Origin: Haliotis rufescens
Lineage: Eukaryota
Assembly: GCF_023055435.1 (NCBI RefSeq)
Contig: NW_025963802.1
Span: forward strand, 614,355 to 678,354
Reading direction: 5' to 3'
DNA length: 64,000 bases
The position numbers and the translations under genes are program-made. The notes under the pieces were generated by a model. It was given only the letters and a program-made list of their open reading frames with translations, had not been told where the DNA came from and did no database searches. This document shows, one piece after another, positions 19,376 through 63,165 of the stretch; within the stretch, counting starts at the first letter, position 1; every line of letters starts with the position of its first letter.

Positions 19376-19574
19376 TCCTTTTCAATGGTAGAACATCTGC
19401 ACAAACACTTAGAAGTGGCATTTTTTCTCACTACAATCAATCATAGACACTTATACATTATCACTACCTGTCAATTATTGAACCATCAGGACCAATAAGA
19501 TCGAACAACCTGTTCTAATAAATCATCATAGTTTATTAGTTTCTTTAAAGAAAATTGCTAGCAAGAGTTTTGGC

Positions 19575-34915: not shown

Positions 34916-35744
34916 ATTCATGCACAATTATTGACCATTTCATGGCGACCCGCCAACGGTTTAAGGCAAGGTCGTGCATCATCTGGACACGTGAAATGCG
35001 GATAGTACGCTCGTCTCATCAACACTGTTGATGCACTTCAACCTGTCCAGCGTTATCAGCATCGTTACTTGTGACTGTACAGAGTGTACAACCGTACACA
35101 TGCTGACTGGCTTAAATAAGCCTGCCGTATGCATTAGTAGTACACCTGTTCTCACCGACATTGTCGTTGAGGTCTTTAATCGTCCGCAATTGATATCACT
35201 CTCAGGTGACCTCAATTGGCACGTATCAGATGAGTCAAATGACAAGGGAGTGATAAAGGACATTCAGCAGGAGGCAACACACATCTATATCGGTCAGCGA
35301 AAGTTGGGCCATGTTACTCCTGTACAGCGCCGTGGTCACCGTCTGCGTGTGTGTCCGGAGCGTGGTCTCTCAACCTGTGTCCGGCTGCCCGTCATACGGG
35401 TGCACACCCACGGGGTCCTTCTCTCTTTTGACGCCATCAGGGATTCCAAGGTCAGGGGTCAAGGTCGTCTGGACGGCACAACTGTCAAATTCATCAGGAA
35501 CCGGAAGTCGTCTGCTTGGCTGCGTCAGTAACGATAGATATGTCGTCTGCCCGTCGCAAAAGTGGGTAGCAACATTCGTAATGACTCTTGTTTCATGCAC
35601 AAGATGTTGATTTTGTAATTCGTAATTCATGAGAACGTTCGTAGTTCCGTACTGGTCACCGCGTTAGACGAGGTATGATGCCGTGTCCTTGACAACGTGG
35701 GTCGACACTAAGATTTAGGATCACAGGTCTGTCTGTCCCAACAT

Positions 35745-35947
35745 GGGGGCACGGGTGGCCCAGTCGTCTAAGGCGCCGCGATTCGCTGTGCAGAGTTGCG
35801 TCCCTTGGGCACGCCAGAAACCTATGATTGTGGGACCGAATCCCGGTTCGCCCCGATTATGTTTCTAGGTTTGTCAGCACCATACCCGTGCTCGTGGGTT
35901 TCACCAAAGTGGTAAATGTCTGAGACCTTCATCACTTCGGGCTTTCA
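35745..35947 (+). mobile_element. SINE family B copy, truncated at the 3' end.
   Basis: Sequence identity. Confidence 0.8.
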
Positions 35948-37548
35948 ATAAGTTCATCATCAACCGTGCTGTTGAAAGCAACGTCACTCATTAAGCGTCA
36001 TGATTCACCCTGATTGTGATCCTCAGCGTCACTGTAGTTTTTCTTTCGCTGTCTCGCCATATATGTCAGATATTGCCACAGGCGTCGTTAAACCAAACCC
36101 ATTCACTCATTCACCCATTCACCCATTCACCCATTCACTCATTCAACCCGTTAACCTCCATGGGCAACCCTAGAGGCCCTAGAGAATAAATTAAAAAAGA
36201 AGTCCAACACAAATCTAGAATAATTGGGTAAGTCTCGATTGCATCAGCTCCAGGTAATTAAGCATTTGTCTGGGCTCCATTTGGATTTTACTTTTGTTAT
36301 TTTGTAAATATATACTTGAATAAGATGACTTTATTTCCGGGACTAAATGCCAGGCTACCCAAGTACGTGCTTGATGTCCGAATCGACGAAGTTCTACACA
36401 AGTGACCACATTACAGATTCTGTTGTATTTTCAGACCGGTGCATCTGACATTGGAGCAAGTCTCTTTTAAGATAGTTTTGTTGGTCGTTTGTATGATATA
36501 GACAGGCCATATTGAACTGGTATCAAGTTTTGTCCTTGAGATTTTTATCTTGCACTTATCAGAGGGCCATCGGCTCACTGAACCAGACGTCTACACATGT
36601 TTTCCCTTTCAGTGACACAACTTGCGGGGTAAATTAGTGGGTAGATCGTTAGCCACGCATGAGATGTGGGTTCGATTCCCCATATGGGTAAAAAGCATTA
36701 GGCGCGTTCCTAGTGTCTTTTCATATTTCAGGATTACTACTAAAAGCGACGTTAAACCATATTCACACACTGGTATTCAAAATTGTGCGTATTTCTGTTG
36801 TTTTAACACAGCATCTTATGAATGTCCTAATGCTGCCTTTCTATACTAGCAATTTATATAGAGAGTTTAACATGGAAACAAAATCGTGATGCTGGGGGCG
36901 TTTGTAAACACCTCGTCTGTCACAGACCTTGAAACAAATATATCCAATGCATCCCGTGCAAGTCTATAATATTTTACACGTGCTGTGAAATTCCAAGCAT
37001 TTATAGCTCTGCAGATTTGTTTAGTCTCTGAAGAAAGTCCCTGGTCTCCATTTTATTATATTTTATAACTAGAATTTAACAACTGTTTTTTCTGTAAAAT
37101 TATGTTTATTTCAGAGGCTAGATGTTAGTCTAGTCAACACCTTGCAGTGGGATCTGTTCTCGCGTGAGGTCACAGGTCAACTTGCCAGCCTCACATCTAA
37201 GGGCGCTGCCGTTGGAGTGTTGAGCGATCAAACATATCTGTGTTTTGGAATTGGCTCAGACAAAGCAGAAGGTTCAAAAATCCAACACCATCGGTGTCAG
37301 CTTTGGATCATTTGATCCCATTTTGGTTCTGTCCTCGATTATAATAAGTATTAACACTATTCTATTTTGAATACTCTGGTCCTTCTTCGCCAGCCAAACT
37401 TCATTTTAGCATAACGCTAAAAATAGACGTCCAATCATATTGCACTACAATGTGACTGCATCTGCATTCGTCTTTGTTGTGCACGTCTCAAATACAACTT
37501 GGAACACCTGGTGGCATAATGGCTTAACACCCCATAAAACATGTCGAT

Positions 37549-37613
37549 GTGGTGCGGTGGGGCGGGGCGGGGTGGGGTGAGGTGGGGTGTGGTGGGGTGG
37601 GGTGTGGTGGGGT
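37549..37613 (+). repeat. G-rich (GGGGTG/GGGGCG)n tract with G-quadruplex potential.
   Basis: Reads ggtggggcggggcggggtggggtgaggtggggtgtggtggggtggggtgtggtgggg. Confidence 0.85.
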
Positions 37614-37649
37614 TACCATTTAGAGGTTCCGGGCCAGAATGATTTGGTC

Positions 37650-37895
37650 GCCAGAAACATACGCTAGTCGTAAAAGACGACCAAATGGACAGGTGGGTTG
37701 GCAATTTTTGAAGGCTAATTGATGAATTGCAGGCTCGCTGCTATGGTTGATGCGTGTCATCGTATCCCAGCTGCGTAGATCGATGCTAATGATGTAAATC
37801 ACTGGATTGCCTGGTCCAGACTCGATTATTTACAGGCCGCCGTCATATAGCTGGAATATTTCTGATTGTGGCGTCAAACAACAAAAGAAAAGAAA
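37650..37895 (+). mobile_element. Family D copy with a diverged 5' part.
   Basis: The 3' part is identical to the family. Confidence 0.65.
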
Positions 37896-38254
37896 ACGTG
37901 TGACAGCTTTCCAATGGGTTAACTGACGAATACACAAATGAGCCGTGATCTTTGACTTAAACAGTTAAATAGCAAATAAACAAACAAACAAAGCGTATCA
38001 TCGTACCCTGACGGCGTGGATCGTTGCTCTGGACTATCTGGTCCAGACTCGTGTCGAACAGACCACCTAACCTTGCTCCAAGGCTGTACTGAAAGATAAA
38101 TCAATGGATGTGTAGTAATTCTATCCTTGTAAAAGACAAGTCTAAAGACGCGGGTCTATTTAGGAGACAACTTGCTCTTACTATAAATAATCTAGAAATT
38201 ATGATTACAGTCTACAGACCACCAGCACATTAAGTGGAACATTTAGTGCGGCGT

Positions 38255-38288
<34 letters not shown>

Positions 38289-38371
38289 AACCTCACAGAG
38301 TTGTGTTACTAGTATTTGATACCTTTACTTTCGCTAAAGGTACTTAACTCGTTTTATGTGTGTCGTTGCAG

Positions 38372-38597
38372 TGGCTACGTGGGGGTTGACGGAGACACCG
38401 GGAAGGTGCTGTGGAGAGACTCCAGCTTGGTGAACCCCTCGCTCCCCATCATGGACATCAGTGGCGACATCATCGGCAGCGACGGCAGATACCTCACGAA
38501 GGTCGACGGCGACGGCACGGTGGAGAAACCACTTATTCCCCTGGACCCTCCCATGACACCTGTTTTCAGGTATTATAGTGACGATGGCATCCACTAA
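38372..38597 (+). CDS. Putative coding exon of an unidentified gene, with a PQQ-like beta-propeller motif (GVDGDTGKVLWRDS). It either reads through to the TAA at 38595-38597 or is spliced at CAG|gtatta at 38569.
   Basis: A strong acceptor (tgtcgttgcag|TGGCTAC) precedes the exon. There is marked third-position GC codon bias across 66 codons. The ORF 38316..38597 is in the same frame. The sequence GxDxxTGKxLW fits the PQQ repeat consensus. Confidence 0.4.
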
Positions 38598-38694
38598 CTG
38601 TGAATGAGAGATTTGAAATTTGCTGTCACTAACACGGTTTGAAATCATAGAAAAACCCTTGCATTATTCCCAGGACATTGTGATTCTCAGTGAT

Positions 38695-40128
38695 TTGGAT
38701 AACTCAGGGTCACTTGCAGAACTCTGGGTCACATCCAAAACGCCCGAGCTTAACAAATATTGGTCACGTCCCCTAGAACACAGACCACAGGTCGATCAGT
38801 GGCTTGCGTAACTCAGGGTCACATCCCCGAGAACACAGACCACAGGTCGATCAGTGACTTACAGAACTCAGGGTCACATCCCCGAGAACACAGACCACAG
38901 GTCGATCAGTGACTTACAGAACTCAGGGTCACATCCCCGAGAACACAGACCACAGGTCGATCAGTGACTTGCGTAACTCAGGGTCACATCCCCGAGAACA
39001 CAGACCACAGGTCGATCAGTGACTTGCGTAACTCAGGGTCACATCCCCGAGAACACAGACCACAGGTCGATCAGTGGCTTGCGTAACTCAGGGTCACATC
39101 CCCGAGAACACAGACCACAGGTCGATCAGTGGCTTGCGTAACTCAGGGTCACATCCCCGAGAACACAGACCACAGGTCGATCAGTGACTTACAGAACTCA
39201 GGGTCACATCCCCGAGAACACAGACCACAGGTCGATCAGTGACTTGCGTAACTCAGGGTCACATCCCCGAGAACACAGACCACAGGTCGATCAGTGACTT
39301 GCGTAACTCAGGGTCACATCCCCTAGAACACAGACCACAGGTCGATCAGTGACTTGCGTAACTGAGGGTCACCTACCTCGATCAAACAGACGCTCAGTGA
39401 CTTACACAACTCAGGGTCACATCCCCTAGAACACAGACCACCAGTCGCTCAGTGACTTACATATCTCAGGATCACATCCTCTATCAAACAAACCACCAGT
39501 CTATCAGTGACTTGCATTACTCTTGGTCACATCCCCTAGAAGACAGACCACCAGTCGCTCAGCGACTTGCGTAACTGAGACCAACAGTCAAACAGACCAA
39601 CAGTCGTTCAGTGACTTACAGAACTCAGGGTCACATACCTCTATCAAACAGACCACCAGTCGCTCAGTGACTTACAGAACTCAGGGTCACATACCTCTAT
39701 CAAACAAACCACCAGTCGCTCAGTGACTTGCGTAACTCAGGGTCACATACCTCTATCAAACAGACCAACAGCCGCTCAGTGACTTACAGAACTCAGGGTC
39801 ACATTCCTCAATCAAACAGACCACCAGTCGCTCAGTGACTTGCGTAACTCAGGGTCACATCCCTCTATCAAACAGGCCACCAGTCGCTCAGTGATTTACA
39901 GAACCCAGGGTCACATACCTCTATCAAACAGACCACCAGTCGCTCAGTGACTTGCGTAACTCAGGGTCACATACCTCTATCAAACAGACCACCAGTCGCT
40001 CAGTGACTTGCGTAACCCAGGGTCACATACCTCTATCAAACAGACCAACAGTCGCTCAGTGACTTACACAACTCAGGGTCACATACCTCTATCAAACAGA
40101 CCACCAGCCGCTCAGTGACTTACAGCTA
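38695..40128. repeat. 55-bp satellite of about 26 copies with two subfamilies. One is ...acatccccgagaacacagaccacaggtcgatcagtgacttgcgta and the other is ...acatacctctatcaaacagaccaccagtcgctcagtgacttacag.
   Basis: Direct reading. The switch between subfamilies lies at about 39350. Confidence 0.95.
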
Positions 40129-40974
40129 CAACTGTCCGTGGGGCACGCGAGTGGCCCAGTCGTCTTATTTGCTGTACATGGTTGCGTCCCTTAGACCTGC
40201 CAGAATCCAATGATTCCTGTTCCTGGTCATTATCCAGTTCAGTCGGCATCATATCCTTGATCGTGGATTTCACTAGTCTAACGCTTAGTCTCTGAAAATA
40301 TATATTCTGATAAAAAACAAACAACTCCATTTACATTGAAAAGGGAGATGGGAGATACAAAGACTGTGGAAATCTAGACTTGCTTCGGTTAGAGTCATAC
40401 AACTACAGTAAGGGTTGGGCGGAAGGGAATATAATATGGTTCAGGGACTGTGCTAGTCTGTCATACAGACCCTGAAACAAATATAAATGAATAAAATAGC
40501 AAGTCTAGATTTCTGCAGTATCAGAAGAGAGTGGGCTCCTTTTTATTATATTTCATAACTATAATTTAACAACTATTTGTGTCGTAAAATATGATCATAT
40601 CAAAGACTAGATATTAGTCTGGGACCGTGAGACAGACTAGGGTTTCACCAAAGTGGACCGGCTCCCATCAGACTGCCACCCTTATTCAACTGTGATACAA
40701 CTGAAATACATTCAAAGCGGCGCAGAACCCAATCCACTCACCACCATTGTTCTGTTTCAGTCTGGAATTCGGAGATGGGAACATCTTGTTGATCGTGTCT
40801 CAGACGGGGGAGGTCGTCGCCTATCTCGCAAGTGAGTCAATATTCTGTCTCTGAGGTGAGGTGAGGTGAGGTGAGGTGAGGTGAGATTTAACGTCGTGTC
40901 CACGATTATTACACTTATACAGCGACCAGTGTGTGCGTGCGTGCGTGCGTGCGTGCGTGCGTGTGTTGGGTGGC

Positions 40975-41232
40975 TGCTCGTACTAGTCCGGGCTAATGCC
41001 GAGTTTATAGCGCACGCCCACTGCGATGCCATGCCGCAGTTTAACATGAATACCACACTCAGACACAGTATGCTGACTCCCAGCAGACCAGTCCTTGTTT
41101 TAGCCCCTTAATGCCGAGCGCCAGACAGGGTAACAACAAGTACCATCTTTTAACGTATTTATGACGCATCCGGGGATCGAACCTCGGACCTTCGCTATAC
41201 GAGCGGACGCTCTACCACTAGACGACGGAGGC
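40975..41232 (-). mobile_element. SINE family C, a full-length copy with a (GTGC)n microsatellite at its 3' end (40925-40968).
   Basis: Sequence identity. Confidence 0.75.
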
Positions 41233-42106
41233 GGTCTCTGTCTGAGACAGACCATGTTACACTATATATAAAAATATAACTGGTTCCTGAAAATTCTTTG
41301 GCCTCATGTTTTATAAAACAAATACATGAACGCTACAATTGCTACATGTCCTAACGGGAAATATATATGAAACCTCACAAACATATTTATTAAATCGCAT
41401 AATTCCTGTGGTTGTACTTACTTTATTCATCAATCATCACTTTTATAAAAAGTCAACATCTCACTAATTATATGAGTTTGTGTAGTCAGGCACCTCGACT
41501 ATGAAATATGTGTTTTATCACCTCAAAACCTGTAGGATATCTGCATTTAGTTTAATTCAATCAACCCATTCAAGATTATTAACAAGGCTAGTCAAGCTAG
41601 CTGAAAACAACATCAGCACAAGAAAATATACTTTCTGATGAAAGGAAATGTATTGTGTAATAAAAGTCTACATGAAATCAGTATTCATTACAAAAATAGA
41701 CGCAAGGAGAGAAATGCATTGTGTAATATACTACTCAAAAGAAGTTAAGGATCACCCGATTCTTTCATAATGGTAAAGTTAATCTGTCATGACATGAGAG
41801 ATTAACTATAGTAATATGAAAGAAACAGGTGATCCTTAACTTCTTTTGAGTAGTATATAAGATTTCAAGACTTTATAAACTGCTCTGCAAAAGTAAATTG
41901 GATTTGACTAAATATTAAAAACGTTATCAAAACGTTACTAGTCTGAAAACAGTCGCCGAAACACTGCAACCTAAAGGTCGAAAACACAACTATGATACCT
42001 ATATGAACTACATCACCATCGAATATAACTATTTCTTGTTGGCTTCCTTTTAGTCACCATTAAACATTGGTGCCACCTTGGCGTAGGATATGCTCGCCTA
42101 TTTGCG

Positions 42107-42352
42107 AAACCCGTGAAGATCCGGGTTAGTATAGGTCTTCAGAAACCCATGCTTGTCGTCAGAGGCGACTAACGGGATCGGGTGGTCAGCCTCGCTGACT
42201 TAGTTGGTGCATGTCATCGAATCCCAAATGCGTGGACCGATGCTCCTGATATCAATCACTAGATTGTGTTGTCCAGACTCGATTGTTTACAGACTAAGAC
42301 CGCCGTCACATAGCTGGAATATTGCTGAGTGCGGCGTTAAACAACAAACAAA
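42107..42352 (+). mobile_element. Family D copy.
   Basis: Sequence identity. Confidence 0.8.
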
Positions 42353-44166
42353 TTTCTCTACTAATTTCTCTACTAGCAAACACATTACTTGTTTCAGGGG
42401 AGCAATAAGCATATCTTTTTCATGTGGCAAGTGTTAATTGTTTTCGGACTATTAAATGAATGAGACAGTTCGAAGCCGGTGTGTGGATCTGCTATATGTC
42501 AGACACGCTGCTGTCCCAGTACAAACACCTAAACCCCCACTCCCACCCCCACCCCCACCCCACCCCACCCCCACCTCCACCTCCCTCACGAGGTGGCAAG
42601 CCAGCGCGGGTTGTTGTAAATCCAGCATCTATAACACATGAACATCACCACATCTCGGAATCTAAATGACAGAATATCACGATAAACATCTCCATTCCTT
42701 AGGCTGACACTTACGACCATTTCCTGACCTGAACTAATCGCGCCCCCTCCCCCCTCACAGCACCCCCCCCCCCCCCCCCCCCTCCCTCACAGCACCCCCC
42801 AGTACCGAGTGAGTTTCCACCCCCACCCACCCCAACCCTTTCCCCTACTCTCCCTCGGTTGTCAAGTCTGCCTTCACGTAATGTAATGTGAACTGCCTGG
42901 AGCATGTCACTTGATATCCTCAGTTTAGAGTTTTGGTATTTCACATCAACCGTCAGCACTCAAGTATTAAAATAAGGATGGGGGGGGGGTCTGGGGGTGG
43001 CATCTGATGACACTTTGAATACGCAATCACTACCATGTTAGCATGTTAATTTGGTTGTTAAAGTAAAATTATTAATACTGGTTTACATAAGGTGTTTGGG
43101 AATATTTGGGTACGGCTTTGGGTGGGACGACAAACTGTACTTTAAGCCATGTGCCCATACTACTGAATGAACTAATCATTTCATACTATCTAATATTAAA
43201 GGGGGACGGCTGACTCATGTATTCAATTCGTTCTTGAAGTTAAAAAAACTCCTATTATTTCTTCCCCTGTATTTACATTTTCATTCCTAAAATATAATAT
43301 TTACGATACAGAACATACTCGGATAATATCTACTTCTTTAAAACTTGACATATTTCTCTGACAAGAGAAGTTGGGGATCATGAATATTTAGTGGGATATT
43401 TTTATGAAAGTTTATGCTCAGTCTTCACTTCAAAATATATCACCCAAAATATTCATATCCATAACTTTTTTTCAGTATTGTTCATAAGCTGATGGAATAC
43501 CGTTGGATGGTAGATTTTCTGAATAAGGATTTAGTGTGACCTTGCACTTTATTTCAGCCATATGTCATTGGTAACGAACTGAACTACTTAATTACCTACA
43601 CACTCCGTCGCAGTGGTGACTCAGCATAACACCACTGCCACAGGCTAATTTGCATATTACGTGACCGGACTTTTCTCTTGTTTGTAAACAAACGCGCTTT
43701 TTTCAGAAATCAGTATAGAACGGACTAATGCAAGTATTTGGGGGCGCTTTACATATTGTTTTGCATAACTATATAGATATTCTACTACAAATGCGACAGT
43801 GAGTTGCATGACAATATATATTTATGCATCAAAGCGACCGTGTTGCTAGCTCTCCGTTGGGCTTCGATGACAGCACGCGGAGCCCTACAACCAATGTAAA
43901 CATAGGATAACTACGCAAAAACAAGTAGATTTTTACGTATTAGCATACTTTCTCAATGAAAGTTAACCATTCTTTAAAATTTGTTTATGAAAATGTGTAG
44001 ACTTGTCAAACATGAAACGAATGAAAAGCATATGCAATATCTTGAATGGACTGTGAAAGATGTGACGAATCGTCACAGGGCGCTGGCTTGTGGCAGAGGT
44101 ACTATGCTAGCTGGCTGCCGGCCGCATGGAACTCTGGGTAGGAGAGTGAATTACCTACACATGAGA

Positions 44167-44347
44167 AGAGTGAGTGGATGAGTGAGTTGGGTTTAACGCT
44201 GATTTAAACAGTGTTCCAGTTATACCACGTCAGCTTAATGTGAGAGGAAGTGATGCAGAGTTTCAGACGTTTATCAGGGCGAACCGGGAACCCAGTCATA
44301 GGTTTCTGGTGTGCCTAAGGGACGCAACTCTGTACGGCGGATTGCGG
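44167..44347 (-). mobile_element. SINE family B copy, diverged and internally deleted.
   Basis: Partial identity. Confidence 0.55.
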
Positions 44348-45192
44348 TGCTTTACACACGCCCATCGCTGTGGTGACTTAGCATAACACCACTGCCACAG
44401 GCTATTTGCATATCACGTAACCGGACTTTTCTCTTGTTCGTAAACAAACGCGCTTATTCTGAAATCAGAACAGATTAGCATAATGCAAGTATTTGGGGCG
44501 TTTTTCATATGGTATTGTATAATTATATCGATATGCTTCTACAACTGCGACAGTGAGTTGCATGACAATACATATCTATACATCAAAGTGCCCGTATCGC
44601 TGGCTCTCCGTAGGGCTTCGATGACACCACGTGGATCCTTACAACCAATGTAAACAAAGGATAACAACGCAAATGAAAATAGTTTTTCACATTGTATGAT
44701 ATTTTCTCAATGCAAATTAACCATTCTCTGACATATGTTTATTTAGATGTAAAAAATGAAACAGATATAAAGTCAACATATGCAATATCTTGAACGGACT
44801 GTGAAAGATGTGACGTATCGTCACATGGCGCTGGCCTGTGGCAGAGATTCTATGCTGGCCGCACAGGAGAGTGGGCGCCCCTGACACATAAGAAACATAG
44901 ATAATACAATACTTTATTATCCTGAAGGGGATTTGTATTACATCTGGGAATAGTTGACATGTTTGAATAATACAGTGAACCCCGACGACAGCGGTATATC
45001 GAGGGTTCGAAAATAAGTTAAGAAAACAGAGATGCCACACATTCCGACATGAGACTGATGACGGGACATAAATCAGTCGTATCCTATATTGCATGTCTTT
45101 TATGAAAACACAACCAGATTATGTATAGCAAGTCTAGCCAACTCTTGTATACAGTCTATGAAATCAGCACCAGGAGAAACATATTTAGGATA

Positions 45193-45358
45193 GTGAGTGA
45201 GTGAGTAGGGTTTTACGCCGCTTTTTGCAATATTCCAGCAATATCACGGCGGGGGACACCAGAAATAGGCTTCACACATTGTACCCATGTCGGGAATCGA
45301 ACCCGGGTCTTTGGCGTGACGAGCGAACGCTTTAACCACTAGTCTACCCGACCGCCCC
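45193..45358 (-). mobile_element. SINE family A copy.
   Basis: Sequence identity to the family consensus. It lies in tandem with the copy at 45401. Confidence 0.8.
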
Positions 45359-45400
45359 TATTTAGGATAGAAATGTATTGTGTAATAAATAATTTCATAG

Positions 45401-45551
45401 AGTGAGTGAGTGTGGTTTTACGCCGCTTTCAGCAATATCACGGCGGGGGACACTAGAAACGGGCTTCACACATTGTACCCATGTCGGGAATCGAATCCGG
45501 GGCTTCGGCGTGACGAGCGAACGCTTTAACCACTAGGCTACCCGACCGCCC
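45401..45551 (-). mobile_element. SINE family A copy.
   Basis: Sequence identity. Confidence 0.8.
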
Positions 45552-45853
45552 CTGATTTCTTACACTATATGTTAGTTTATACGGACGCTGATACACGCTC
45601 GTGACAAGAAAGCCATCACACAATAATTTGTTAGAAAAAGTGATGAAGAGGAAGAACAGATATTATAATCGATGTGATGGCTTGTACCACGGACGTATAT
45701 ACAACATCTTTTCACGTCTTTGCTTGTACATATATGTATATACCTACCTTGAACGATAAGGGAAATCTGATCTGATCACATCAAAAAACATGTTTATTTA
45801 GGTATACCGGTCTGTTACCTTTTCTCGTAGTTTTTTTAAGTGTTAAAACACTC

Positions 45854-46066
45854 GTGTCTGAAATGATATTGCCTTCGACAGCACCAATAAACCATTCCGT
45901 AATTTCCCCAGATGGAATCCCCCTGGCGTCCCTGGTGCTACGGGGAAACGTTGAGATGTACAACGGGATCTTTCATCCCATCGCCCAGCCCATCATGCGG
46001 GGGAGCCGCGCCTACATCCTCACCCAGTTCCAGCCCGACCCCCAGGATGCAGCTATACCCCAAGAA
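45854..46066 (+). CDS. Possible first coding exon (MSEMILPSTAPINHSVISPDGIPLASLVLRGNVEMYNGIFHPIAQPIMRGSRAYILTQFQPDPQDAAIPQEK) ending at the donor AAG|gtaggg. Identity is unknown.
   Basis: It is ORF-track frame 45854..46213. There is GC-rich codon-like periodicity and a GT donor at 46067. It shows a weak resemblance to roadblock/LC7-type folds, which is speculative. Confidence 0.2.
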
Positions 46067-46124
46067 AAGGTAGGGAGGCCCTGGTGGCACGCAGGGACAT
46101 CTGTTTTGTTGGTTAGTTTGTTTC

Positions 46125-46838
46125 TTGTTAAACGCCCCTTCACAGTTCCAGCAGCCTATTCTCATCCCTTTCTCAGGTCCAGCAGCCAATTCCCATCCCC
46201 TTCCCAGCTCTAGCAGCCTATACCCAACCCCTCAGCTCCAGCAGCCTAAACTTATCCCCTTCTCAGCTCTACCAGCCTATACTCATCCTCTTCTCAGCTC
46301 TAGTAACCTACACCCAACCCCTCAGCTCTGGCATCCTGTACTCATCCCGTTCTCACCTCAAGTAGCCTATGCACATCCCCTTCTCAACTCTAGCAGCCTA
46401 CACCCACCCCGTCAGCTCCAGCAGCCTAAACCTATCCTCTTCTCAACTCTAGCAGCCTATGCACATCCCCTTCTCAACTCTAGCAGCCTACACCCACCCC
46501 GTCAGCTCCAGCAGCCTAAACCTATCCTCTTCTCAACTCTAGCAGCCTATGCACATCCCCTTCTCAACTCTAGCAGCCTACACCCACCCCGTCAGCTCCA
46601 GCAGCCTAAACTTATCCCCTTCCCAGCTATAGCATCCCATACCAACCCCCTTCTCGGTTGTAGTAGCCTATACTCATCCCCTCCTTAAGTCTAGCAACAT
46701 ATACTCATCCTCTTCTCAGCTGTAGCATCCTATACCCACCCCCTCAGCTCCAACAGTCTATACTCATCCCCTCAGCTCCAACAGCCTATACTCATTCCCT
46801 CCGCTCTACCAGCCTATACCCATCCCCTTCTCTTCATT
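46125..46838. repeat. Tandem repeat with a unit of about 30 bp (ttctcagctctagcagcctatactcatcccc) and a higher-order structure of about 90 bp. It continues at 47100-47290 after a SINE.
   Basis: Direct reading. The ORF 46125..46688 is an artefact. Confidence 0.9.
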
Positions 46839-46840
46839 GC

Positions 46841-47099
46841 GGCGTCGAACCGTGAAGATCCGGGGTAGAACAGATCTTCAGCAACCCAGTCTTGCCGTAA
46901 AAGGCCACTATGCTTGTCAGGATCGGGTGGTCAGGCTCGCTGACTTGGTTGATACATGTCGTCAATCCCAATTGCGTGGATCGATGCTCATGATATTAAT
47001 CACTGGATTGTCTGGTCCAGACTCGATTATTTACAGACCGCCGTCGTATAGCTGGAATACTGCTGAGTGATGCGTTAAGCAACAAACCAACCAACCAAC
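46841..47099 (+). mobile_element. Family D copy inserted into the approximately 30-bp tandem array.
   Basis: The tandem array resumes at 47100. Confidence 0.8.
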
Positions 47100-47433
47100 C
47101 CTCTCAGCTCCAGCAACCTATACGCATCCGCTTCTCAGCTCTGGCATCCTGTACTCATCCCCTTCTCAACTCTAGCAGCCTATGCTCATCCCCTTCTCAA
47201 CTCTAGCAGGCCTACACCCATCCCGTCAGCTCCAGCAGCCTAAACCTATCCCCTTCTCCACTCTAGCAGCCTATACTCATCCCTTCTCCACATTTCAATT
47301 AAAAGTCTTAAGAATTCCTTAATACTCGAGTATGGTCAAGGTCGACCCCTCCTTCACCCGCCGTGTCCTGCACCAGTGTATCTCACAATGCTTGGCTTCA
47401 ATCACTTCCTTTGTCCGTTTTCAGATTGTGAGA

Positions 47434-48174
47434 ATGCAGCGCTTATATTCTGTCGACATCCGGGTCAGTGAATTAGAGCGCATGCGCGTGGTATGGAGCG
47501 TGAACGTTGGAACAGGAAGGGCCACATTCGCATCTGATGCCGACTCTCATGACACAGATGGTGGTTCTGAAAATGTGCTGTTGTATTATCACAGCACCAT
47601 CTACATCAGCCTGTCGGGGGTTGATGGGCGTGGTGGTGATTGTGGCGCCGTTTCGACGTTGCTGGCCGTTAGAGAAGACGGTTCCAAAGGAACCATAGTG
47701 CATACATCCAGTTATCCACCATCAAATTTTGCTGTTTACGATGACGTCACGTTTTGTCATGACGACAACGTTCAGATGCCAGTCGTCTGGGTTGCTCAGC
47801 AACGGGGTTCTGTTATTTCAGCACTTAACCCGAAAACTAAAAGCATGTTCATGAATATTACTTTAAATGCCTTACTGAATGTAAAACACGTCAGGCTATC
47901 CTCAAGACTAATGGTACACATCGACACTGCCGACAGGTTTGTTCTCATGCTCTCATTGAGCATTGCAAATACCACCGCTCTGATGTACTCCCAACACCTT
48001 GTGACGCTGCAAGGAGTTCTGTCTTCTCACAAAGCACCAACAGTGATGTGGAATACTGCATTACCTGATTCCTTTATGGTTGAAGGCCAAATCAGTTTTG
48101 TGAGCGCATCCTATGAGACGCTTGTCGGAACTGGTAGAAATATGACCGGTGTGTATGCATTTGGTTTCCGCTAA
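47434..48174 (+). CDS. Hypothetical protein, paralog 1, about 246 aa. It begins MQRLYSVDIRVSELE....
   Basis: It lies inside the 280-aa ORF 47332..48174. Similarity to the downstream ORF begins exactly at this ATG (MQRLYSVDI / MQRLYAIDL), and both C-termini end VEGQISFV.../EVQGQIAV.... No family is recognised. Confidence 0.5.
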   Translation: MQRLYSVDIRVSELERMRVVWSVNVGTGRATFASDADSHDTDGGSENVLLYYHSTIYISLSGVDGRGGDCGAVSTLLAVREDGSKGTIVHTSSYPPSNFAVYDDVTFCHDDNVQMPVVWVAQQRGSVISALNPKTKSMFMNITLNALLNVKHVRLSSRLMVHIDTADRFVLMLSLSIANTTALMYSQHLVTLQGVLSSHKAPTVMWNTALPDSFMVEGQISFVSASYETLVGTGRNMTGVYAFGFR

Positions 48175-48555
48175 AATAACATATACATGACAACTGAATA
48201 CATTAGAGAACGGTTATTTGTGCCACACGTCGTATGAATACATTCAATTGTTTCTTCTTAAATAAATTATTGTTTCAGTAGCCACGGCATTATTATTTTT
48301 TCATTTGTACGTGATTGCGAATCTATTCTATCTGTACAAGCAACCGCCTCGTTAAACTGCTTTCTACTCATTTAACGGCTGTCAACGGCGACTGTACCCG
48401 CCCCTACAGCTTAGCTTGTCCTTCCCCTCCCCTACCCCTCACACAGCACACACTACAGCTTACCTGTCCCTCCCTTCCTACCCTACCCCACTGCCTCAGA
48501 GAGCCTCGGGGAGCATCTCATCAGACAAAGATTGTTTGACCTCACTGCAAGCTGT

Positions 48556-48690
48556 CATCGTATCCTAATTGTGTGGATCGATGCTCTTGATATCAATCAC
48601 TGGATTGCCTTGTCCAGACTCGATTATTTACAGACCGCCGTCATATAGCTGGAATATTGCTGAGTGCGCCGTTAAACAACAAACAAACAC
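48556..48690 (+). mobile_element. Family D copy, truncated at the 5' end, with a target-site duplication of about 11 bp (cactgcaagct). It lies between the two unknown paralogous ORFs.
   Basis: The flanks read ctcactgcaagct|gtcatcg and caaacaaacactgcaagctt. Confidence 0.8.
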
Positions 48691-48842
48691 TGCAAGCTTA
48701 ACATTCTCACTGCCCTGGCTTAACTGAGCCTATACCCTTGTCTATAAAGACAAGGTAAAAGACTGGCATATTAATGGATATCATATTGTGTCGCAGATTA
48801 AACCAGGTTCTTCCACATTTTCCACAGCTAGGTACTCTGGGT

Positions 48843-50213
48843 ATGCAGCGTCTGTACGCCATAGACCTCTTGGACCGCTTGTTGCAGCCTATCGATATCG
48901 TCTGGTACTTCAACCTGGAACTAGAGGTCAAGGTCAACTGCCGGCGACCAGAGAAATCTACGGAATCGTCCCAAGATGAAGGGAAACAAAACGCTGGGAA
49001 CGTAGCAGGTAGTAAACATAAACCCACGTCCGAGATCTCACGTGATAAGAAGATAGTAGGACCTGGGAACCCTGATGAAATGAAACGGTCTCGTCTCTCC
49101 AGAAACAAACGTGACACACTCGAGCACGACACGAGACTGAAGTATATGACGGCTAATCAGGTGGATGGTAACTCCGTCCTCCTAGACATGCTCACACGAT
49201 CTGAAACAAAGGGTGGAACAAATATTTGGGAACCAACCAACAGTTTGCGGAATCCAGTACTTCGACATGGCGAATCTAAGGATGTTGTGGGAATGGTTCA
49301 GGACGAATTCATTCTTTCTACCGGTACAGGAAACACAAACAAGCATCAAAACTCTGGTACTTCCGGTACGGGCGGTTCACACAAGGGCCGCCATCCCAGC
49401 GACAGGATTCGTCACCAATGGTCTCAGCAGGCAAGTGAACAGTCCAGTTTGATATACTTCTTTGGAACAGTGATGGCAAGTGTGGCGCCCCCTACAGGGA
49501 TCTGTGATATGCTGACATTGGAAGAAAATCGTCAGTGCTGCCTGGAAAGCTCATTTTCCAAATTGGTGGGTATTCAAGATCTAGGTACAAACATGAGCTT
49601 GTCGTACAGCAATAACTTCTCCCTCTCTCATATGTCGGTCTATGACGATTCCTATGGCAGACAGGGTCTGGACTCGTCATGGAACGCTCGTGTGAAACAA
49701 AAACTCCGGGACACAGATCCTAACGGCGAAAAAACAACAGTCACTCACTCAAAGCAACGGGCCAGGCTTGGCGAGGGAAGCCTAGTGTGGGCTGTCACGC
49801 AGTTTGGCGACACCATTAACGGATTCGATCAAATCTCCAGCCAGGTCCAACAAATCGCTAACGTCTCCCACATGCTAAACACCAGCGTACAAGTGACGTC
49901 AAGGGTAATGGTAGCCATAGATCCCAAAACGCATGCTGACCTCCTTCTTTTCGCCGTAAGACGGGTTAATAAAACTCAGCCCCACTCTTCCTATAATGCG
50001 ACGAATTACTTGGTTGCCTTGGATACATCCTTTGGGGACGGTCAGCAAAACATAATGTGGACACTTCCGGTTCCCTATGATTATGAAGTTCAAGGTCAGA
50101 TTGCCGTGTTGGAAGTTCCGTGGGTTAAAAGCTCTTCGCCGCTTTTAGTCGCAACAGCCCAGGGTCCTGTCAGCCAGATAGCGTTCGCCTTTAACTTCAC
50201 CCAGACAGGGTGA
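48843..50213 (+). CDS. Hypothetical protein, paralog 2, about 456 aa. It begins MQRLYAIDLLDRL... and carries an inserted low-complexity region of about 170 aa rich in S/T/G/K.
   Basis: It lies inside the 479-aa ORF 48774..50213 and is homologous to 47434..48174 at the N-terminal and C-terminal thirds (VYDD, MWNTALP/IMWTLPVP, VEGQISF/VQGQIAV). Confidence 0.5.
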   Translation: MQRLYAIDLLDRLLQPIDIVWYFNLELEVKVNCRRPEKSTESSQDEGKQNAGNVAGSKHKPTSEISRDKKIVGPGNPDEMKRSRLSRNKRDTLEHDTRLKYMTANQVDGNSVLLDMLTRSETKGGTNIWEPTNSLRNPVLRHGESKDVVGMVQDEFILSTGTGNTNKHQNSGTSGTGGSHKGRHPSDRIRHQWSQQASEQSSLIYFFGTVMASVAPPTGICDMLTLEENRQCCLESSFSKLVGIQDLGTNMSLSYSNNFSLSHMSVYDDSYGRQGLDSSWNARVKQKLRDTDPNGEKTTVTHSKQRARLGEGSLVWAVTQFGDTINGFDQISSQVQQIANVSHMLNTSVQVTSRVMVAIDPKTHADLLLFAVRRVNKTQPHSSYNATNYLVALDTSFGDGQQNIMWTLPVPYDYEVQGQIAVLEVPWVKSSSPLLVATAQGPVSQIAFAFNFTQTG

Positions 50214-56463: not shown

Positions 56464-57351
56464 TCATGTACGACGCTTTTTACCTGTGGCCATGCGCGTC
56501 GTACGGAGAGGAGAGGGGCTGGTTCGAAACTCCGAGTCGTTGTTGAAGGGACAGTATTTGATGGTGTGGGCGTGGTCCCCGATGGCTTGGCAGATTGGAC
56601 ACGGGTACTTCCTCAACACTGGGCACGCTGTATACCCACGGGAATCCTTCAAAACATGTCCTGTGTACACGTGTGGAGGTTCTTTGTTGTTCTTGCAGAA
56701 TACACAGATCAACTTCGATTTTTTCTTCCCCTGCACCTGTAGTTGTGTGGCATCACCACGGGCTGTCTTGCACTGTTTGAGCCACAGGTATTCCTTGATC
56801 CGATCATTTGGAACAACCGGGATCTCGCGGGTGGGGGGTTCGTGCCCACGCACCTTTTGTTGTATGATGTCATACTCGTCCAGTTCGTAAGTAGTTCCGT
56901 TTCTTTCGAATTCCGCCGTCGTCAAAGCACAAAGTCTTTCCTGGTCTAACTTGCTGAAATTCGAATTCACAAGCGATGGATTTGAAGCTTGGAAACTTGC
57001 ATATTTGAAGCTGTCGCTACTCTCGTCCGATGACAGGGAAATATCGGAACTAGGGCTCAGCTCGCCCCGGCCCCCGGCGAACTCCTGACACAACCCAAAG
57101 TAGTCCTGGTAGGGGTCGTAGATGTGGTCGTTCCCCAGACATAACACGTCGCTAAACGCGGAGTCATTCCTACCTATGAAGTCTTCTTTGGCGGACAAGA
57201 TTTTCTTCTTGGCGAGCTGTGGCGTGAATTTGGGGATCTGAGGGAGTAGTAGGCTTTGGTGGTTTGGAACACCATCCCCAGCGAGTAGTTCAAAGTCGTC
57301 AGTCGTACGACAGTCCCCGGAGTCAGGTTCCAGCACAGGGTGTAGTAGCAT
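56464..57351 (-). CDS. nanos: Nanos-type RNA-binding zinc-finger protein, 295 aa. It is a single exon.
   Basis: The ORF 56464..57366 contains [53 protein letters not shown]. This matches the two CCHC knuckles of the nanos zinc finger exactly, as C-x2-C-x12-H-x10-C and C-x2-C-x7-H-x4-C. The first in-frame ATG is at 57351, and the track start at 57366 is a GTG. There is an upstream in-frame TGA. Confidence 0.88.
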
Positions 57352-58805
57352 TGTTGAATCAGCCACAGGTCGCCTCCGAGTTAAAGATGGTAGCCTCGGT
57401 CAATGGTGCGCCGCCTTGGGTGATAGAATTTGGGCAGCACTGACGACTCTTGCACCTGGCACGTGTGACGGCGCACGGATTCCACGTGCATTTTATAACT
57501 CGCCATACGTCCAGGCCGCCAACGGTTTTCATTGGCTCGGGTTTTCCCGTCAATTAACAATTGGGCGGCGCTTACATTATTTGTAAACATAAATCACGTG
57601 ACACTAAAGTCGTTGGGGTAACGAAGTAACTATTTTATCAGAAATGACGATCAGTTTGATATTTTGTATCTCAACCATAAATGTTATTTTTGATGACGCA
57701 CTCAAAATACAATGATGATAATTTAAGTACGTGAAGTCGCAATATAATATATTTTCAGCATGCCAGCGGAAATCATGTAGTTATATAAAAATGTAACAGC
57801 GCCATTGACAATATTGTTTCCAATATATAAAGGAATGATGTTACCCGTTTAGATGCATATACAGCTAATAATTATGGTAAAAACTAAGTAGCATCAACTT
57901 GACCTTACACGCGAAGAATGTGGGACCTAGTATGAATGGACTGACAGTGACACAATGTAACACTACATGAATTTGCAATATAGCTACAGTATTGCCACGT
58001 CGCAATGAAACGGCCTTATCAAACACACGGCGCAATATATTTGAAGAGTATCACAATGAGCCACAATGACTGTAAACCAATATCTAATGCATTGCCATGA
58101 TGTACAAAATATAAGCGTCAAAGCCATGTCCATAATCTTAATACACCTCAGCCAATAGAAATACTTAAATTGGTCTTATCGAAAACTCCACGAAGCTGAG
58201 AAGATGCAATTTACACTGTAGTGCGTGGATTCAGATCAGTAGGGCGAATTTTTAAAAAGTCGAATATTTGTTTTGATTTCATCAAAATGTTGAGTAGGGG
58301 AAACATCAATTGTGAGAGGGTATGTTTAAGAGGAATTTTCAACAGATATTAATTATGGTATTTTAATAATTTATTTATAAGAGTATATTAACACAAAATC
58401 ACTGCTTTTCATTTTTTGTCAAATCTGGCCTTGTATGAGTAGGGGAAACATCAATTGTGAGAGGGTATGTTTAAGAGGAATTTTCAACAGATATTAATTA
58501 TGGTATTTTAATAATTTATTTATAAGAGTATATTAACACAAAATCACTGCTTTTCATTTTTTGTCAAATCTGGCCTTGTATGAACAAACAGAAATATAGG
58601 GATGTGGGTTGAAAATAGAAATATGATATAATTAAACATTGGATCAAAGCATTTCACGTATTCCTGAACAAATGCACTTGTTAGACCTTTACAAAACTGC
58701 AATATAGTTGAAAAAAATAATATAAATTTTATTTCCCAGCTATCATCAGAACGGCTATAGTGCTTGACATTTCTGCCCTCGATGTCTACAGCCCATGCAG
58801 GAATG

Positions 58806-59077: not shown

Positions 59078-59250
59078 TCTTTGGCTCGCTAACTTGATTG
59101 ATTCATGCCATCGTATCCAAATTGCGTGGATCGATGCTCATGATGTCAATCACTGGATTGTCTAATCGAGACTCAATTATTTTCAGACCGCCGTCATGTA
59201 GCAGGAATATTGCTGAGTGAGGCGTTAAACAACAAACAAACAAACAATCG
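59078..59250 (+). mobile_element. Family D copy, truncated at the 5' end.
   Basis: Sequence identity. Confidence 0.7.
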
Positions 59251-62088: not shown

Positions 62089-62997
62089 TGCCGGGAGGAT
62101 CCATAATACGGAGTGTTCAGATGACTTGTGGTGTGAACATGTTTGAAAGCAAATGGGTTAAATTGAGTTTTAATATATAATGTAAAGGAAACCATACAAT
62201 ATATCTGTACTGTTAGACTTGGGGTCTGGGGATTGGTCGTATCCCAGTTCTGGTCGCTACAGACGTCTGTTTTAGGACCTAGAGCGTACAGGTTTTTTTT
62301 ACTTTACAATCACGCCCCCCCCCCCCCCCCCCCCCCCCCTCTCTCTCTCGCTGCATATGTGCATCCCCTTTTCAGCTCTAAAAGTAATATACTTAAGGTT
62401 TCCTTATTACTCCATGCAGGGCCCCTTTATGTACGTAGACCCAATTTGAACCCCTATTTATAAAATGGACAAGTCCGACCATTGCCACTCCCCAATTGTA
62501 TTCAGGGAGTTATAATTATATAAATACGGGTAAGTATGTTTTAAAGCGTGTACTTTTTACTAACATCGTTAATGAAACTGTACGTAATGTTGATACGTAT
62601 ACGGTAATCTAGTGTTTTATTGTACGATAAACAACTCCCACTCGTCGTTTATTTCTTAAATAAATTGTGCATCAAGAACATAACATTGTATAGTATGTCA
62701 ATTTGTTAGTGACTGTGGCTTTTGCAACAATGTACACGTAGTTGATATGTAGCGCCTGGCCTCTTATTACAGTCGAGCTTTGAAGCTTGTTCAAAGAACG
62801 TCGGGGCGCTTTTTAGAGCACTACGGTATATGCAAAATAACGTACCTATCATTTTTGTTGTTGAGGTATAAAGTTGGTTTTTTTTAAATATCAAATCATC
62901 TGTGCTACTTTATAAATGTTTGCAACATAGAATAACTTATAATCAATTGCTATCATTTCCGTTTTCGCTAGCAGTGTCCGACAGCACCACCGATTTG

Positions 62998-63165
62998 CTT
63001 GTTGTTTAACGCCGCACTCAGCAATATTCCAGCTATGTGACGGCGGTCTGTAAATAATCGTGTCTGGACAAGACAATCCAGTGATTGACATGATGAGCAT
63101 CGACCCACGCAGTTGGAATACGATGACATGTATCAACCAAGTCAGCGAGACTGACCACACATCGC
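62998..63165 (-). mobile_element. Family D copy, partial.
   Basis: Sequence identity. Confidence 0.7.

What the first reader, a model, noticed from the sequence alone, without database searches (positions are those of the whole stretch)
47434..50213. Tandem pair of paralogous single-exon ORFs of unknown family (246 aa and 456 aa)
The two ORFs are conserved at the start (MQRLY(S/A)(V/I)D) and at the C-terminal end, where both finish in a beta-strand-like, V/S/T-rich alternation. They also share internal islands (VYDD, MWNTALP/IMWTLPVP). The second copy carries an S/T/G/K-rich insertion of about 170 aa that is predicted to be disordered. Neither has an evident signal peptide, and I do not recognise the family. 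Conservation begins exactly at the ATG, and pyrimidine-rich cag acceptor-like sequences sit 9-15 nt upstream of each ATG, so they could be either single-exon genes or internal exons. A 5'-truncated family D SINE with an 11-bp target-site duplication sits between them. The nanos gene lies about 6 kb downstream. This is the best candidate in the window for something undescribed.
Basis: seen in the sequence. Interest (0 to 1): 0.7.

Follow-up and report, generated by a model that had tools for sequence, protein, structure and literature searches.

The report
Two alternative last exons, one gene
The two "ORFs" are a tandemly duplicated pair of alternative last exons of one five-exon red-abalone gene (RefSeq LOC124124649), each supplying a different back half to a secreted eight-bladed beta-propeller protein of unknown function. 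The gene models are already in RefSeq, so this is a tidy but fairly ordinary case.

Summary
Both ORFs sit at the stated coordinates and are paralogous (BLASTP E 9e-8, 27% identity over 244 aligned columns). They are not single-exon genes. Both are 3'-terminal exons (5a 47425-48174, 5b 48828-50213) that splice in phase 0 to the same upstream donor at 46069. Exons 1-4 (35311-46069) encode a signal peptide and the front half of the protein.

My two spliced models are letter-for-letter identical to Haliotis rufescens RefSeq proteins: XP_048249190.1 (isoform X2, 475 aa, uses 5a) and XP_046343826.2 (isoform X1, 687 aa, uses 5b). "MQRLY" is a conserved internal strand motif, not a start codon.

Both exons are intact in H. 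rubra, H. asinina and a fourth Haliotis genome, with conserved acceptors. Both are under purifying selection (dN/dS 0.20 and 0.28 against H. asinina). Patella vulgata annotates the same arrangement; Gigantopelta has a single last exon.

AlphaFold plus Foldseek give a BamB/PQQ-like eight-bladed propeller. By strand count the last exon supplies about 4.5 blades. Exon 5b adds a disordered loop of about 150 aa. The family (molluscs, brachiopod, crinoid, amphioxus, choanoflagellates) is uncharacterised everywhere. It belongs to a known kind: tandem-duplicated C-terminal exon substitution. Function is unknown and I could not inspect transcript evidence.

The parts
35311..35561 (+). Exon 1. Contains the start codon, the signal peptide (MLLLYSAVVTVCVCVRSVVSQ) and the conserved GCPxYGC cysteine motif. 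The donor is AA|gtgggt.
   Evidence: tblastn of H. asinina and H. rubra proteins. Splice sites and translation. Exact match of the spliced product to the RefSeq proteins.
38372..38569 (+). Exon 2 (propeller blades; sequence GYVGVDGDTGKVLW...).
40761..40831 (+). Exon 3
45912..46069 (+). Exon 4. It ends in phase 0 (...PQEK|gtaggg). This is the donor shared by both last exons, and it is conserved in H. rubra and H. asinina.
46135..47288 (.). Intron-4 minisatellite with a 31-bp unit (46135-46832 and 47102-47288), interrupted by a copy of the SINE-like repeat at about 46847-47094.
   Evidence: Tandem Repeats Finder. blastn against the orthologous loci. Repeat copies.
47425..48174 (+). Alternative last exon 5a (249 codons plus TAA). 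Acceptor cttcctttgtccgttttcag|ATTGTG. Gives isoform X2, 475 aa. Encodes the compact C-terminal propeller half.
   Evidence: Splice phase. Exact RefSeq match XP_048249190.1. Intact orthologues in H. rubra, H. asinina and the DRR299178 genome. dN/dS 0.19-0.20. AlphaFold pLDDT 82 with 19 strands.
48261..48266 (+). AATAAA, 87 nt after the 5a stop codon. Candidate poly(A) signal for the 5a isoform.
   Evidence: H. rubra and H. asinina also have an AATAAA within 11-72 nt of the stop. This is weak evidence on its own.
48543..48698 (+). SINE-like dispersed repeat (48554-48687, CAAA-rich tail) flanked by the 11-bp target-site duplication CACTGCAAGCT. It lies in the spacer between 5a and 5b. It is also present in the DRR299178 species but absent from the orthologous site in H. 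rubra and H. asinina.
   Evidence: Sequence. At least 12 copies in the window..
48828..50213 (+). Alternative last exon 5b (461 codons plus TGA). Acceptor ttcttccacattttccacag|CTAGGT. Gives isoform X1, 687 aa.
   Evidence: Exact RefSeq match XP_046343826.2. Acceptor conserved in four genomes. dN/dS 0.28 overall: 0.13 in the folded C-terminal part and 0.56 in the insert.
48987..49430 (+). S/T/G/K-rich disordered insertion inside 5b (148 aa). There is a second, shorter disordered loop at 49662-49772.
   Evidence: pLDDT below 50 at P0003 residues 280-453 and 531-566, mapped to the window. Gaps in 5a in the alignment.

Best explanation
Window 35311-50213 (+) is one Haliotis rufescens gene, LOC124124649. 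Exons 1-4 encode a signal peptide, a four-cysteine N-terminal motif and roughly the first 3.5 blades of an eight-bladed PQQ/BamB-like beta-propeller. The rest of the propeller (about 4.5 blades, including the strands that close the ring) is encoded by a single large last exon.

In abalones that last exon was duplicated in tandem. The exon-4 donor can therefore splice either to 5a, which has its own stop codon and a candidate poly(A) signal, or past it to 5b. This yields two secreted proteins with the same front half and different back halves (27% identical). The 5b version also carries a disordered S/T/G/K-rich loop of about 150 aa.

Shown here: the exon structure, the phase compatibility, the identity of the spliced products to the RefSeq isoforms, purifying selection on both exons, the fold, and a parallel arrangement in Patella.

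Inferred, not shown: that both isoforms are actually expressed; that each forms a closed propeller; and that the protein is a non-catalytic extracellular binding scaffold whose ligand surface is switched by the exon choice.
For: Gene model: all four internal junctions are canonical AG/GT. Exon 4 ends in phase 0, and both 5a and 5b start in phase 0 behind strong Py-tract AG acceptors.

RefSeq match: the two spliced translations are found exactly as XP_048249190.1 (isoform X2, 475 aa) and XP_046343826.2 (isoform X1, 687 aa) of H. rufescens LOC124124649.

Orthologues: H. rubra and H. asinina proteins join exons 1-4 to 5b.

Conservation of 5a: it is intact between exon 4 and 5b in H. asinina (L003:18952-19677) and H. 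rubra (L005:21088-21810). Its acceptor region is almost invariant, and indels are in-frame only.

Selection:
- Against H. asinina: 5a omega 0.20 (p 1e-13); 5b omega 0.28 (p 1e-16).
- Against the close relative: 5a 0.19 (p 7e-4); 5b 0.58 (p 0.07). Neither exon has indels, while the flanks do.

Family: 148 representatives, typically 460-620 aa, carry the internal RLYAxD...W motif. 5a aligns end to end with the C-terminal half of the Gigantopelta protein (E 5e-17).

Other gastropods: Gigantopelta has the same five-exon layout with one last exon. Patella vulgata has two paralogous last exons, and both isoforms are annotated (534 and 475 aa).

Fold:
- AlphaFold model of the H. asinina protein: pTM 0.71, 32 strands. 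Its best PDB matches are BamB, with TM about 0.7 over the whole of BamB.
- 5a alone: pLDDT 82, 19 strands, in the same strand order as the 18 strands of the 5b-encoded part of the P0003 model (one strand more). All its PDB hits are beta-propellers.
- 7 of 43 family members hit Pfam PQQ_2, best E 1e-14.
Against: - No transcript data could be inspected. The RefSeq XP_ records are computed models. The only Haliotis contigs from Logan are genomic.
- The H. rubra (RefSeq) and H. asinina annotations contain only 5b isoforms. So use of 5a is annotated in only one species.
A closed propeller with 5a is therefore inferred from strand-for-strand correspondence.
- The Haliotis protein is below the Pfam PQQ_2 gathering score (19.1 against 27.6).
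- The function has no experimental or annotated support anywhere in the family.
Confidence: 0.85

Rival explanations
1. Two independent single-exon paralogous genes, each translated from its MQRLY ATG. This is the reading in the first reader's title.
For: Each ORF has an in-frame ATG at the start of the similarity. The M is kept in all 5a copies.
Against: - The motif is internal in every family member, and the M is L in H. asinina 5b and in several relatives.
- The Py-tract AG acceptors and the codons upstream of the ATG are conserved in four genomes.
- The products would lack a signal peptide and would be only about 4.5 blades of an 8-blade propeller.
- The RefSeq, H. rubra and H. asinina models all splice exon 4 onto these exons.
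Confidence: 0.03
2. Only 5b is functional. 5a is a redundant duplicated exon that is rarely or never used, and the X2 model is an annotation artefact.
For: The H. rubra RefSeq and H. asinina annotations have no 5a isoform. No transcript evidence was seen here.
Against: - 5a is open and indel-free or in-frame in four genomes across dS of about 0.57, with omega 0.20 (p 1e-13). It is better conserved at the protein level than 5b: 74.5% against 65.7% identity to H. asinina.
- Its acceptor is nearly invariant.
- Patella annotates both equivalents.
Confidence: 0.07
3. The protein is a PQQ-dependent or other enzyme rather than a binding scaffold, and the exon swap changes catalytic properties.
For: Foldseek also finds quinohemoprotein alcohol dehydrogenases and tetrathionate hydrolase. 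One family member weakly hits Pfam PQQ (PF01011).
Against: - TM-scores to the dehydrogenases are low (0.33-0.35), against about 0.7 for the non-catalytic BamB.
- There is no sequence match to any solved enzyme.
- Animals are not known to make PQQ (my own background knowledge).
- Catalytic residues were not examined.
Confidence: 0.08
4. The ORFs are transposable-element genes.
For: SINE copies and a minisatellite surround them.
Against: - No TE domain in Pfam.
- Single-copy in the window.
- Syntenic next to nanos in three species.
- Homologous to a conserved cellular gene family.
Confidence: 0.01

Closest known systems
Tandem-duplicated exon substitution at the C-terminus (alternative last exons derived from exon duplication, e.g. 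the tropomyosin 3' exons; PMC9741552, PMC9013439)
   Same: Two homologous exons lie in tandem. Both are compatible with the same upstream donor, and each has its own stop codon, so the isoforms differ only by a homologous C-terminal region. Both copies are under purifying selection. According to PMC9741552, C-terminal swaps are an enriched class: 77 of 236 human events.
   Different: The swapped unit here is very large (249-461 aa, more than half of a single globular domain) and very divergent (27% identity). According to that paper, human terminal swaps mostly involve tails, TM helices, coiled coils or disorder. Mutually exclusive use is known here only from computed RefSeq models.
BamB (YfgL) and other PQQ-like eight-bladed beta-propellers (Pfam PQQ_2, PF13360)
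   Same: The predicted fold superposes on the whole of BamB with TM about 0.7. There are 32 strands, which equals 8 blades of 4. Some family members hit PQQ_2 at up to E 1e-14.
   Different: This is a eukaryotic secreted protein with no BAM context. The Haliotis protein is below the Pfam threshold. Sequence identity to BamB is 8-10%. It has an extra Cys-rich N-terminal motif and, in 5b, long disordered loops.
Patella vulgata LOC126815720 isoforms X1 and X2 (the same uncharacterised family)
   Same: Same exon layout. Two paralogous last exons lie in tandem, and both are annotated as alternative isoforms (534 and 475 aa).
   Different: The Patella and Haliotis exon pairs do not group one-to-one in an NJ tree. 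Whether this is one ancient duplication or two independent ones is unresolved.

Membership tests
Tandem-duplicated alternative last exons | The two exons are homologous to each other. | tested here: met
   BLASTP E 9e-8. Colinear alignment with 27% identity over 244 columns. Near-identical strand order in the AlphaFold models (19 strands for 5a against 18 for the 5b-encoded part).
Tandem-duplicated alternative last exons | The exons are adjacent in one gene, and both have acceptors in the phase of the shared upstream donor. | tested here: met
   The exon-4 donor is phase 0. 5a and 5b both start in phase 0 behind Py-tract AG acceptors. The acceptors are conserved in four genomes.
Tandem-duplicated alternative last exons | Each exon ends the reading frame and has its own 3' end signal. 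| tested here: met
   Stop codons at 48172-48174 and 50211-50213. AATAAA at 48261 and 50551. The hexamers are weak evidence.
Tandem-duplicated alternative last exons | Transcripts use one exon or the other. | not testable with these tools
   Both spliced products exist as RefSeq computed models X1 and X2, but no RNA data could be read. The Logan Haliotis contigs are genomic.
Tandem-duplicated alternative last exons | Both copies are maintained by selection. | tested here: met
   omega 0.20 for 5a and 0.28 for 5b against H. asinina, both p below 1e-12.
PQQ/BamB-like 8-bladed beta-propeller (Pfam PQQ_2, PF13360) | Sequence match above the Pfam gathering score. | tested here: not met
   P0003 scores 19.1 bits against a cutoff of 27.6. 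The window ORFs give no hit. 7 of 43 relatives match at E of 0.01 or better, best 1e-14.
PQQ/BamB-like 8-bladed beta-propeller (Pfam PQQ_2, PF13360) | Eight four-stranded blades forming one closed propeller. | tested here: met
   AlphaFold model with pTM 0.71, ordered parts at pLDDT above 90, and 32 strands. Foldseek top hits are BamB at E 6e-9, with target-normalised TM 0.64-0.72 for the full-length matches. This was done for the 5b-type orthologue, not for the 5a isoform.
BamB proper (bacterial BAM-complex lipoprotein) | Bacterial outer-membrane lipoprotein that is part of the BAM complex. | tested here: not met
   The host is a mollusc. The family is found in animals and choanoflagellates. 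It resembles BamB in fold only.
PQQ-dependent dehydrogenases | PQQ/metal-binding and catalytic residues. | not tested
   Only low-TM structural hits (0.33-0.35) and one weak PF01011 hit in 43 members.
SINE insertion between the exons | Dispersed multicopy element with a target-site duplication and a simple-repeat tail. | tested here: met
At least 12 copies at 78-91% identity in the window. 11-bp TSD and a CAAA-rich tail. The orthologous site is empty in H. rubra and H. asinina.

The most novel reading that the evidence does not exclude
Swapping more than half of a single closed beta-propeller (about 4.5 of 8 blades) by alternative last exons may be a deliberate, recurrent way for gastropods to diversify the binding surface of a secreted propeller. 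The evidence for recurrence is that it is seen in both Haliotis and Patella, possibly through independent duplications. On this reading one constant half-ring is completed by either of two highly divergent half-rings, and the segments kept most similar (both ends of the exon) are those that must dock onto the constant half. This would be an unusually large structural unit for tandem-duplicated exon substitution, in a holozoan protein family with no known function.
Probability: 0.3. Interest if true: 0.5.

Novelty: new member of a known kind. Interest (0 to 1): 0.3.

Why it matters
It corrects a plausible-looking "pair of orphan genes" into one annotated gene with two isoforms. It also gives that uncharacterised gene family a first fold assignment: a secreted BamB-like 8-bladed propeller found from choanoflagellates to molluscs, a brachiopod, a crinoid and amphioxus.

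It shows that H. rubra and H. asinina carry a conserved, selected but unannotated last exon (5a). Their annotations probably miss an isoform.

If both isoforms are expressed, this is a clean natural example of exchanging half of a closed repeat domain by splicing. That could interest people who study propeller folding and evolution.

It does not open a long-standing question, and the gene models are already public.

Tried and rejected
I used the H. asinina 5b-type protein and exon 5a alone instead.
- The two single-ORF homology searches returned only cluster representatives (Logan ORF fragments). This hid the exact H. rufescens RefSeq isoforms until the exact look-up.
- Logan contigs L001 and L002 looked like possible transcripts but are colinear genomic DNA, so they carry no splicing information.
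- P0002 (H. rubra isoform X2) was not on record for locus look-up. Isoform X1 worked.
- The Littorina locus (L007) contained only the first exons and was dropped.
- NJ trees of the C-terminal halves give only 56-65% bootstrap for Haliotis 5a+5b as sisters and do not place the Patella exons. The age and number of the duplications stay open.
At 27% amino-acid identity synonymous sites are saturated, so I used orthologous comparisons instead.
- Literature searches for the locus names and for abalone, propeller and alternative-exon terms found nothing relevant.
- PDB sequence search found nothing.
Full report

Yes. The ORF list and the sequence show an ORF open from 47332 to 48174 with MQRLYSVD starting at 47434 (246 aa from that ATG). 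A second ORF is open from 48774 to 50213 with MQRLYAID starting at 48843 (456 aa).

The two are homologous. BLASTP gives E 9e-8 over the C-terminal 139 residues and a separate match over the first 25. A multiple alignment with orthologues aligns them colinearly from end to end. Identity is 27% over 244 columns, somewhat higher at both ends (30-31%) than in the middle (21-22%).

- Py-tract/AG sites lie 9 and 15 nt before the ATGs.
- An extra S/T/G/K-rich segment of about 150 aa sits in the second copy.
- A SINE-like repeat at 48554-48687 has an 11-bp target-site duplication.
- nanos lies at 56464-57366 on the minus strand.

**2. What are they?**

A homology search with the second ORF found H. 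rubra LOC124268518 (618 aa) and an H. asinina protein (712 aa). In both, the ORF is only the C-terminal two-thirds of the protein. The H. asinina protein has a signal peptide, and the "M" of MQRLY is L there.

tblastn of these proteins against the window found the missing N-terminal part in four upstream exons. I placed the splice sites by hand: E1 35311-35561, E2 38372-38569, E3 40761-40831, E4 45912-46069. All have canonical AG/GT sites. Exon 4 ends in phase 0 (...PQEK|gtaggg).

Both ORFs begin, a few codons before their ATG, with a strong acceptor in phase 0: ttttcag|ATTGTG at 47425 and ccacag|CTAGGT at 48828. Joining E1-4 to either one gives open reading frames of 475 aa (with 5a) and 687 aa (with 5b).

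An exact-sequence look-up shows that both are already in RefSeq. They are Haliotis rufescens LOC124124649 isoform X2 (XP_048249190.1, 475 aa) and isoform X1 (XP_046343826.2, 687 aa). So the window is red abalone, and the two "ORFs" are the alternative last exons of one annotated gene.

The earlier searches missed these records because the database shows only cluster representatives. Those representatives happened to be prokaryote-style ORF calls on genomic contigs of a related abalone.

**3. Are both exons functional?**

Exon 5a is absent from the H. rubra and H. asinina protein annotations. It is nevertheless present and intact in both genomes, between exon 4 and 5b: L005:21088-21810 and L003:18952-19677. 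It has only in-frame indels, a stop codon at the same place, and an almost invariant acceptor region (cttcct[t/a]tgtccgttttcag|AT[T/A]GTGAGAATG). The 5b acceptor is equally conserved.

The in-frame extension upstream of the 5a acceptor in the window (47332-47424) is closed by a stop codon in both other species. This marks the acceptor, not an upstream ATG, as the start of the conserved coding sequence.

Nei-Gojobori estimates:

| Comparison | Exon or region | omega | Detail |
|---|---|---|---|
| vs H. asinina | 5a | 0.20 | dS 0.57; binomial p 1e-13 against neutrality |
| vs H. asinina | 5b overall | 0.28 | p 1e-16 |
| vs H. asinina | 5b folded C-terminal part | 0.13 | |
| vs H. asinina | 5b disordered insert | 0.56 | |
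| vs close relative DRR299178 | 5a | 0.19 | 7 non-synonymous, 11 synonymous; p 7e-4 |
| vs close relative DRR299178 | 5b | 0.58 | p 0.07 |

Against the close relative, neither exon has indels while the flanks have many. In a blastn of the region against the two orthologous loci, 5a stands out as a conserved island of 79-80% identity between repeats.

**4. The family and the fold**

A full HMMER scan with the H. asinina protein found 148 cluster representatives, 24 of them at E 1e-30 or better. Most are 460-620 aa, which is the size of the 5a isoform rather than the 5b isoform.

Named members are all "uncharacterized". They come from gastropods (Gigantopelta, Patella, Littorina, Candidula), bivalves (Saccostrea, Ylistrum, Mactra, Solemya), the brachiopod Lingula, the crinoid Antedon, amphioxus, and the choanoflagellates Monosiga and Barroeca.

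Both 5a and 5b match the C-terminal halves of these proteins. 5a aligns end to end with Gigantopelta (E 5e-17), and 5b matches at E 1.6e-8.

Pfam gives only a sub-threshold PQQ_2 hit for the abalone protein. Seven of 43 relatives hit PQQ_2, with a best E of 1e-14.

AlphaFold2 on the H. asinina protein with a 43-sequence alignment gives pTM 0.71. 346 residues have pLDDT of 90 or more. There are two low-confidence loops (280-453 and 531-566) and 32 beta-strands. Foldseek against the PDB puts BamB first (E 6e-9, target-normalised TM 0.64-0.72 for the full-length matches, alignments spanning the whole query). Other PQQ-type eight-bladed propellers follow.

By strand count, 14 strands precede the exon 4/5 junction and 18 follow it. 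So the last exon supplies roughly 4.5 of the 8 blades, including the C-terminal strands that close the ring. This count comes from the DSSP string, not from coordinates.

Exon 5a folded alone (pLDDT 82.4, pTM 0.79) has 19 strands, one more than the 18 of the 5b-encoded part, in the same order. It matches only beta-propellers in the PDB.

**5. Is the arrangement special to abalone?**

- Gigantopelta aegis has the same five-exon layout, with the last intron at the same place, but only one last exon. There is no second copy within 10 kb downstream.
- Patella vulgata has two last exons in tandem (L006:17084-18040 and 18838-19614). They are paralogous (E 7e-7), and both are annotated: isoform X1 (534 aa) and isoform X2 (475 aa). 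I reproduced X2 exactly from the DNA.

NJ trees of the C-terminal halves put Haliotis 5a and 5b as sisters with 56-65% bootstrap. They do not pair either one with a Patella exon. The duplication predates the H. asinina / H. rubra / H. rufescens split. Whether it is shared with Patella or arose twice is unresolved.

**6. Mechanism**

This is the best-supported reading, at about 0.85 for the gene-structure part. Transcription starts upstream of 35311. After exon 4, the spliceosome joins the 46069 donor either to 5a or, skipping 5a, to 5b. If it joins 5a, the message ends at a site after 48174, and an AATAAA lies at 48261. If it joins 5b, the stop codon is at 50213 and an AATAAA lies at 50551.

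The products share residues 1-226: the signal peptide, the Cys motif and the front blades. They differ in the remaining blades, and X1 has an extra disordered loop of about 150 aa.

Several steps are inference. The protein is probably a secreted, glycosylated, non-catalytic binding scaffold. That follows from the leader peptide, the conserved cysteines, the many NxS/T sites visible in the sequences and the BamB-like rather than dehydrogenase-like fold. I put it at about 0.5. The idea that exon choice switches binding specificity is a hypothesis.

**7. Comparison with what is known**

Alternative isoforms produced by tandem-duplicated exons are a well-described class. C-terminal swaps are an enriched subclass, making up 77 of 236 human events, and tropomyosin 3' exons are one example (PMC9741552; also PMC9013439). 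This locus meets the structural criteria for that class. Transcript-level exclusivity could not be tested here.

It differs in scale. The swapped unit is more than half of one closed globular domain and is only 27% identical between the two copies. According to that paper, human terminal swaps mostly involve tails, TM helices, coiled coils or disorder.

The fold is that of BamB/PQQ-like propellers. The protein is not a BamB (it is eukaryotic and secreted), and the abalone sequence is below the Pfam threshold.

**8. Verdict**

The gene and both isoforms are already in RefSeq as uncharacterised models.

What this analysis adds:
- the fold assignment;
- the demonstration that both last exons are selected across abalones;
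- the unannotated 5a exons in H. rubra and H. asinina;
- the parallel case in Patella.

Interest is modest (0.3). The locus is a new member of a known kind.

Noticed in passing
window 15-10213: A 23-bp satellite (GTGAAGTGGGACAGAAGTGATGT) of about 459 copies, with extreme strand asymmetry (GC skew about 0.74), fills the first 10 kb of the window.
   Followed up: no
window 46135-46832 and 47102-47288 (intron 4): A 31-bp (90-bp higher-order) minisatellite, C/T-rich on the + strand, produces a spurious 187-aa ORF. A related array lies in the same intron in H. rubra, and a short one lies in H. asinina, so the array is old.
   Followed up: partly
window, at least 12 sites (e.g. 31225-31355, 32687-32812, 37755-37885, 42212-42352, 46965-47091, 59106-59242, 62994-63128): The roughly 135-bp SINE-like repeat seen between the two exons is scattered on both strands at 78-91% identity. 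All copies share the same 5' boundary as the copy at 48554. So the label "5'-truncated" could not be confirmed from this copy.
   Followed up: partly
window 56464-57366 (-); L003:27578-28465 (-); L005:31549-32436 (-): nanos (Pfam zf-nanos) lies tail-to-tail downstream of the propeller gene in H. rufescens, H. asinina and H. rubra. The synteny is conserved.
   Followed up: partly
window 40850-40885: A (GGTGA)n microsatellite begins about 20 nt after the exon-3 donor.
   Followed up: no
window 47332-47424: The in-frame ATG-initiated extension upstream of exon 5a (MVKVDPSFTRR...) is present in H. rufescens and the DRR299178 species. In H. rubra and H. asinina it is closed by a stop codon. It is intronic, and it misled a prokaryote-style gene caller into the 281-aa protein P0004.
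   Followed up: yes
protein database clusters: The exact RefSeq isoforms were hidden as non-representative members of 90% clusters headed by shorter Logan ORF fragments. Patella isoform X2 sits in a cluster whose representative is a 49-aa Bacillus cereus protein, which looks like a clustering artefact.
   Followed up: no
L006:894-6616 (Patella vulgata): Another called gene (435 aa, no Pfam hit) lies directly upstream of the Patella family member on the same strand. I did not check whether it is a tandem paralogue.
   Followed up: no
window 35374-35403 (protein residues 22-31, PVSGCPSYGC): The near-invariant family motif directly after the signal peptide (xSGCPxYGC) superficially resembles a bacterial lipobox followed by Cys. 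This is curious for a BamB-like fold. It is probably just a disulfide motif, and it was not analysed further.
   Followed up: no
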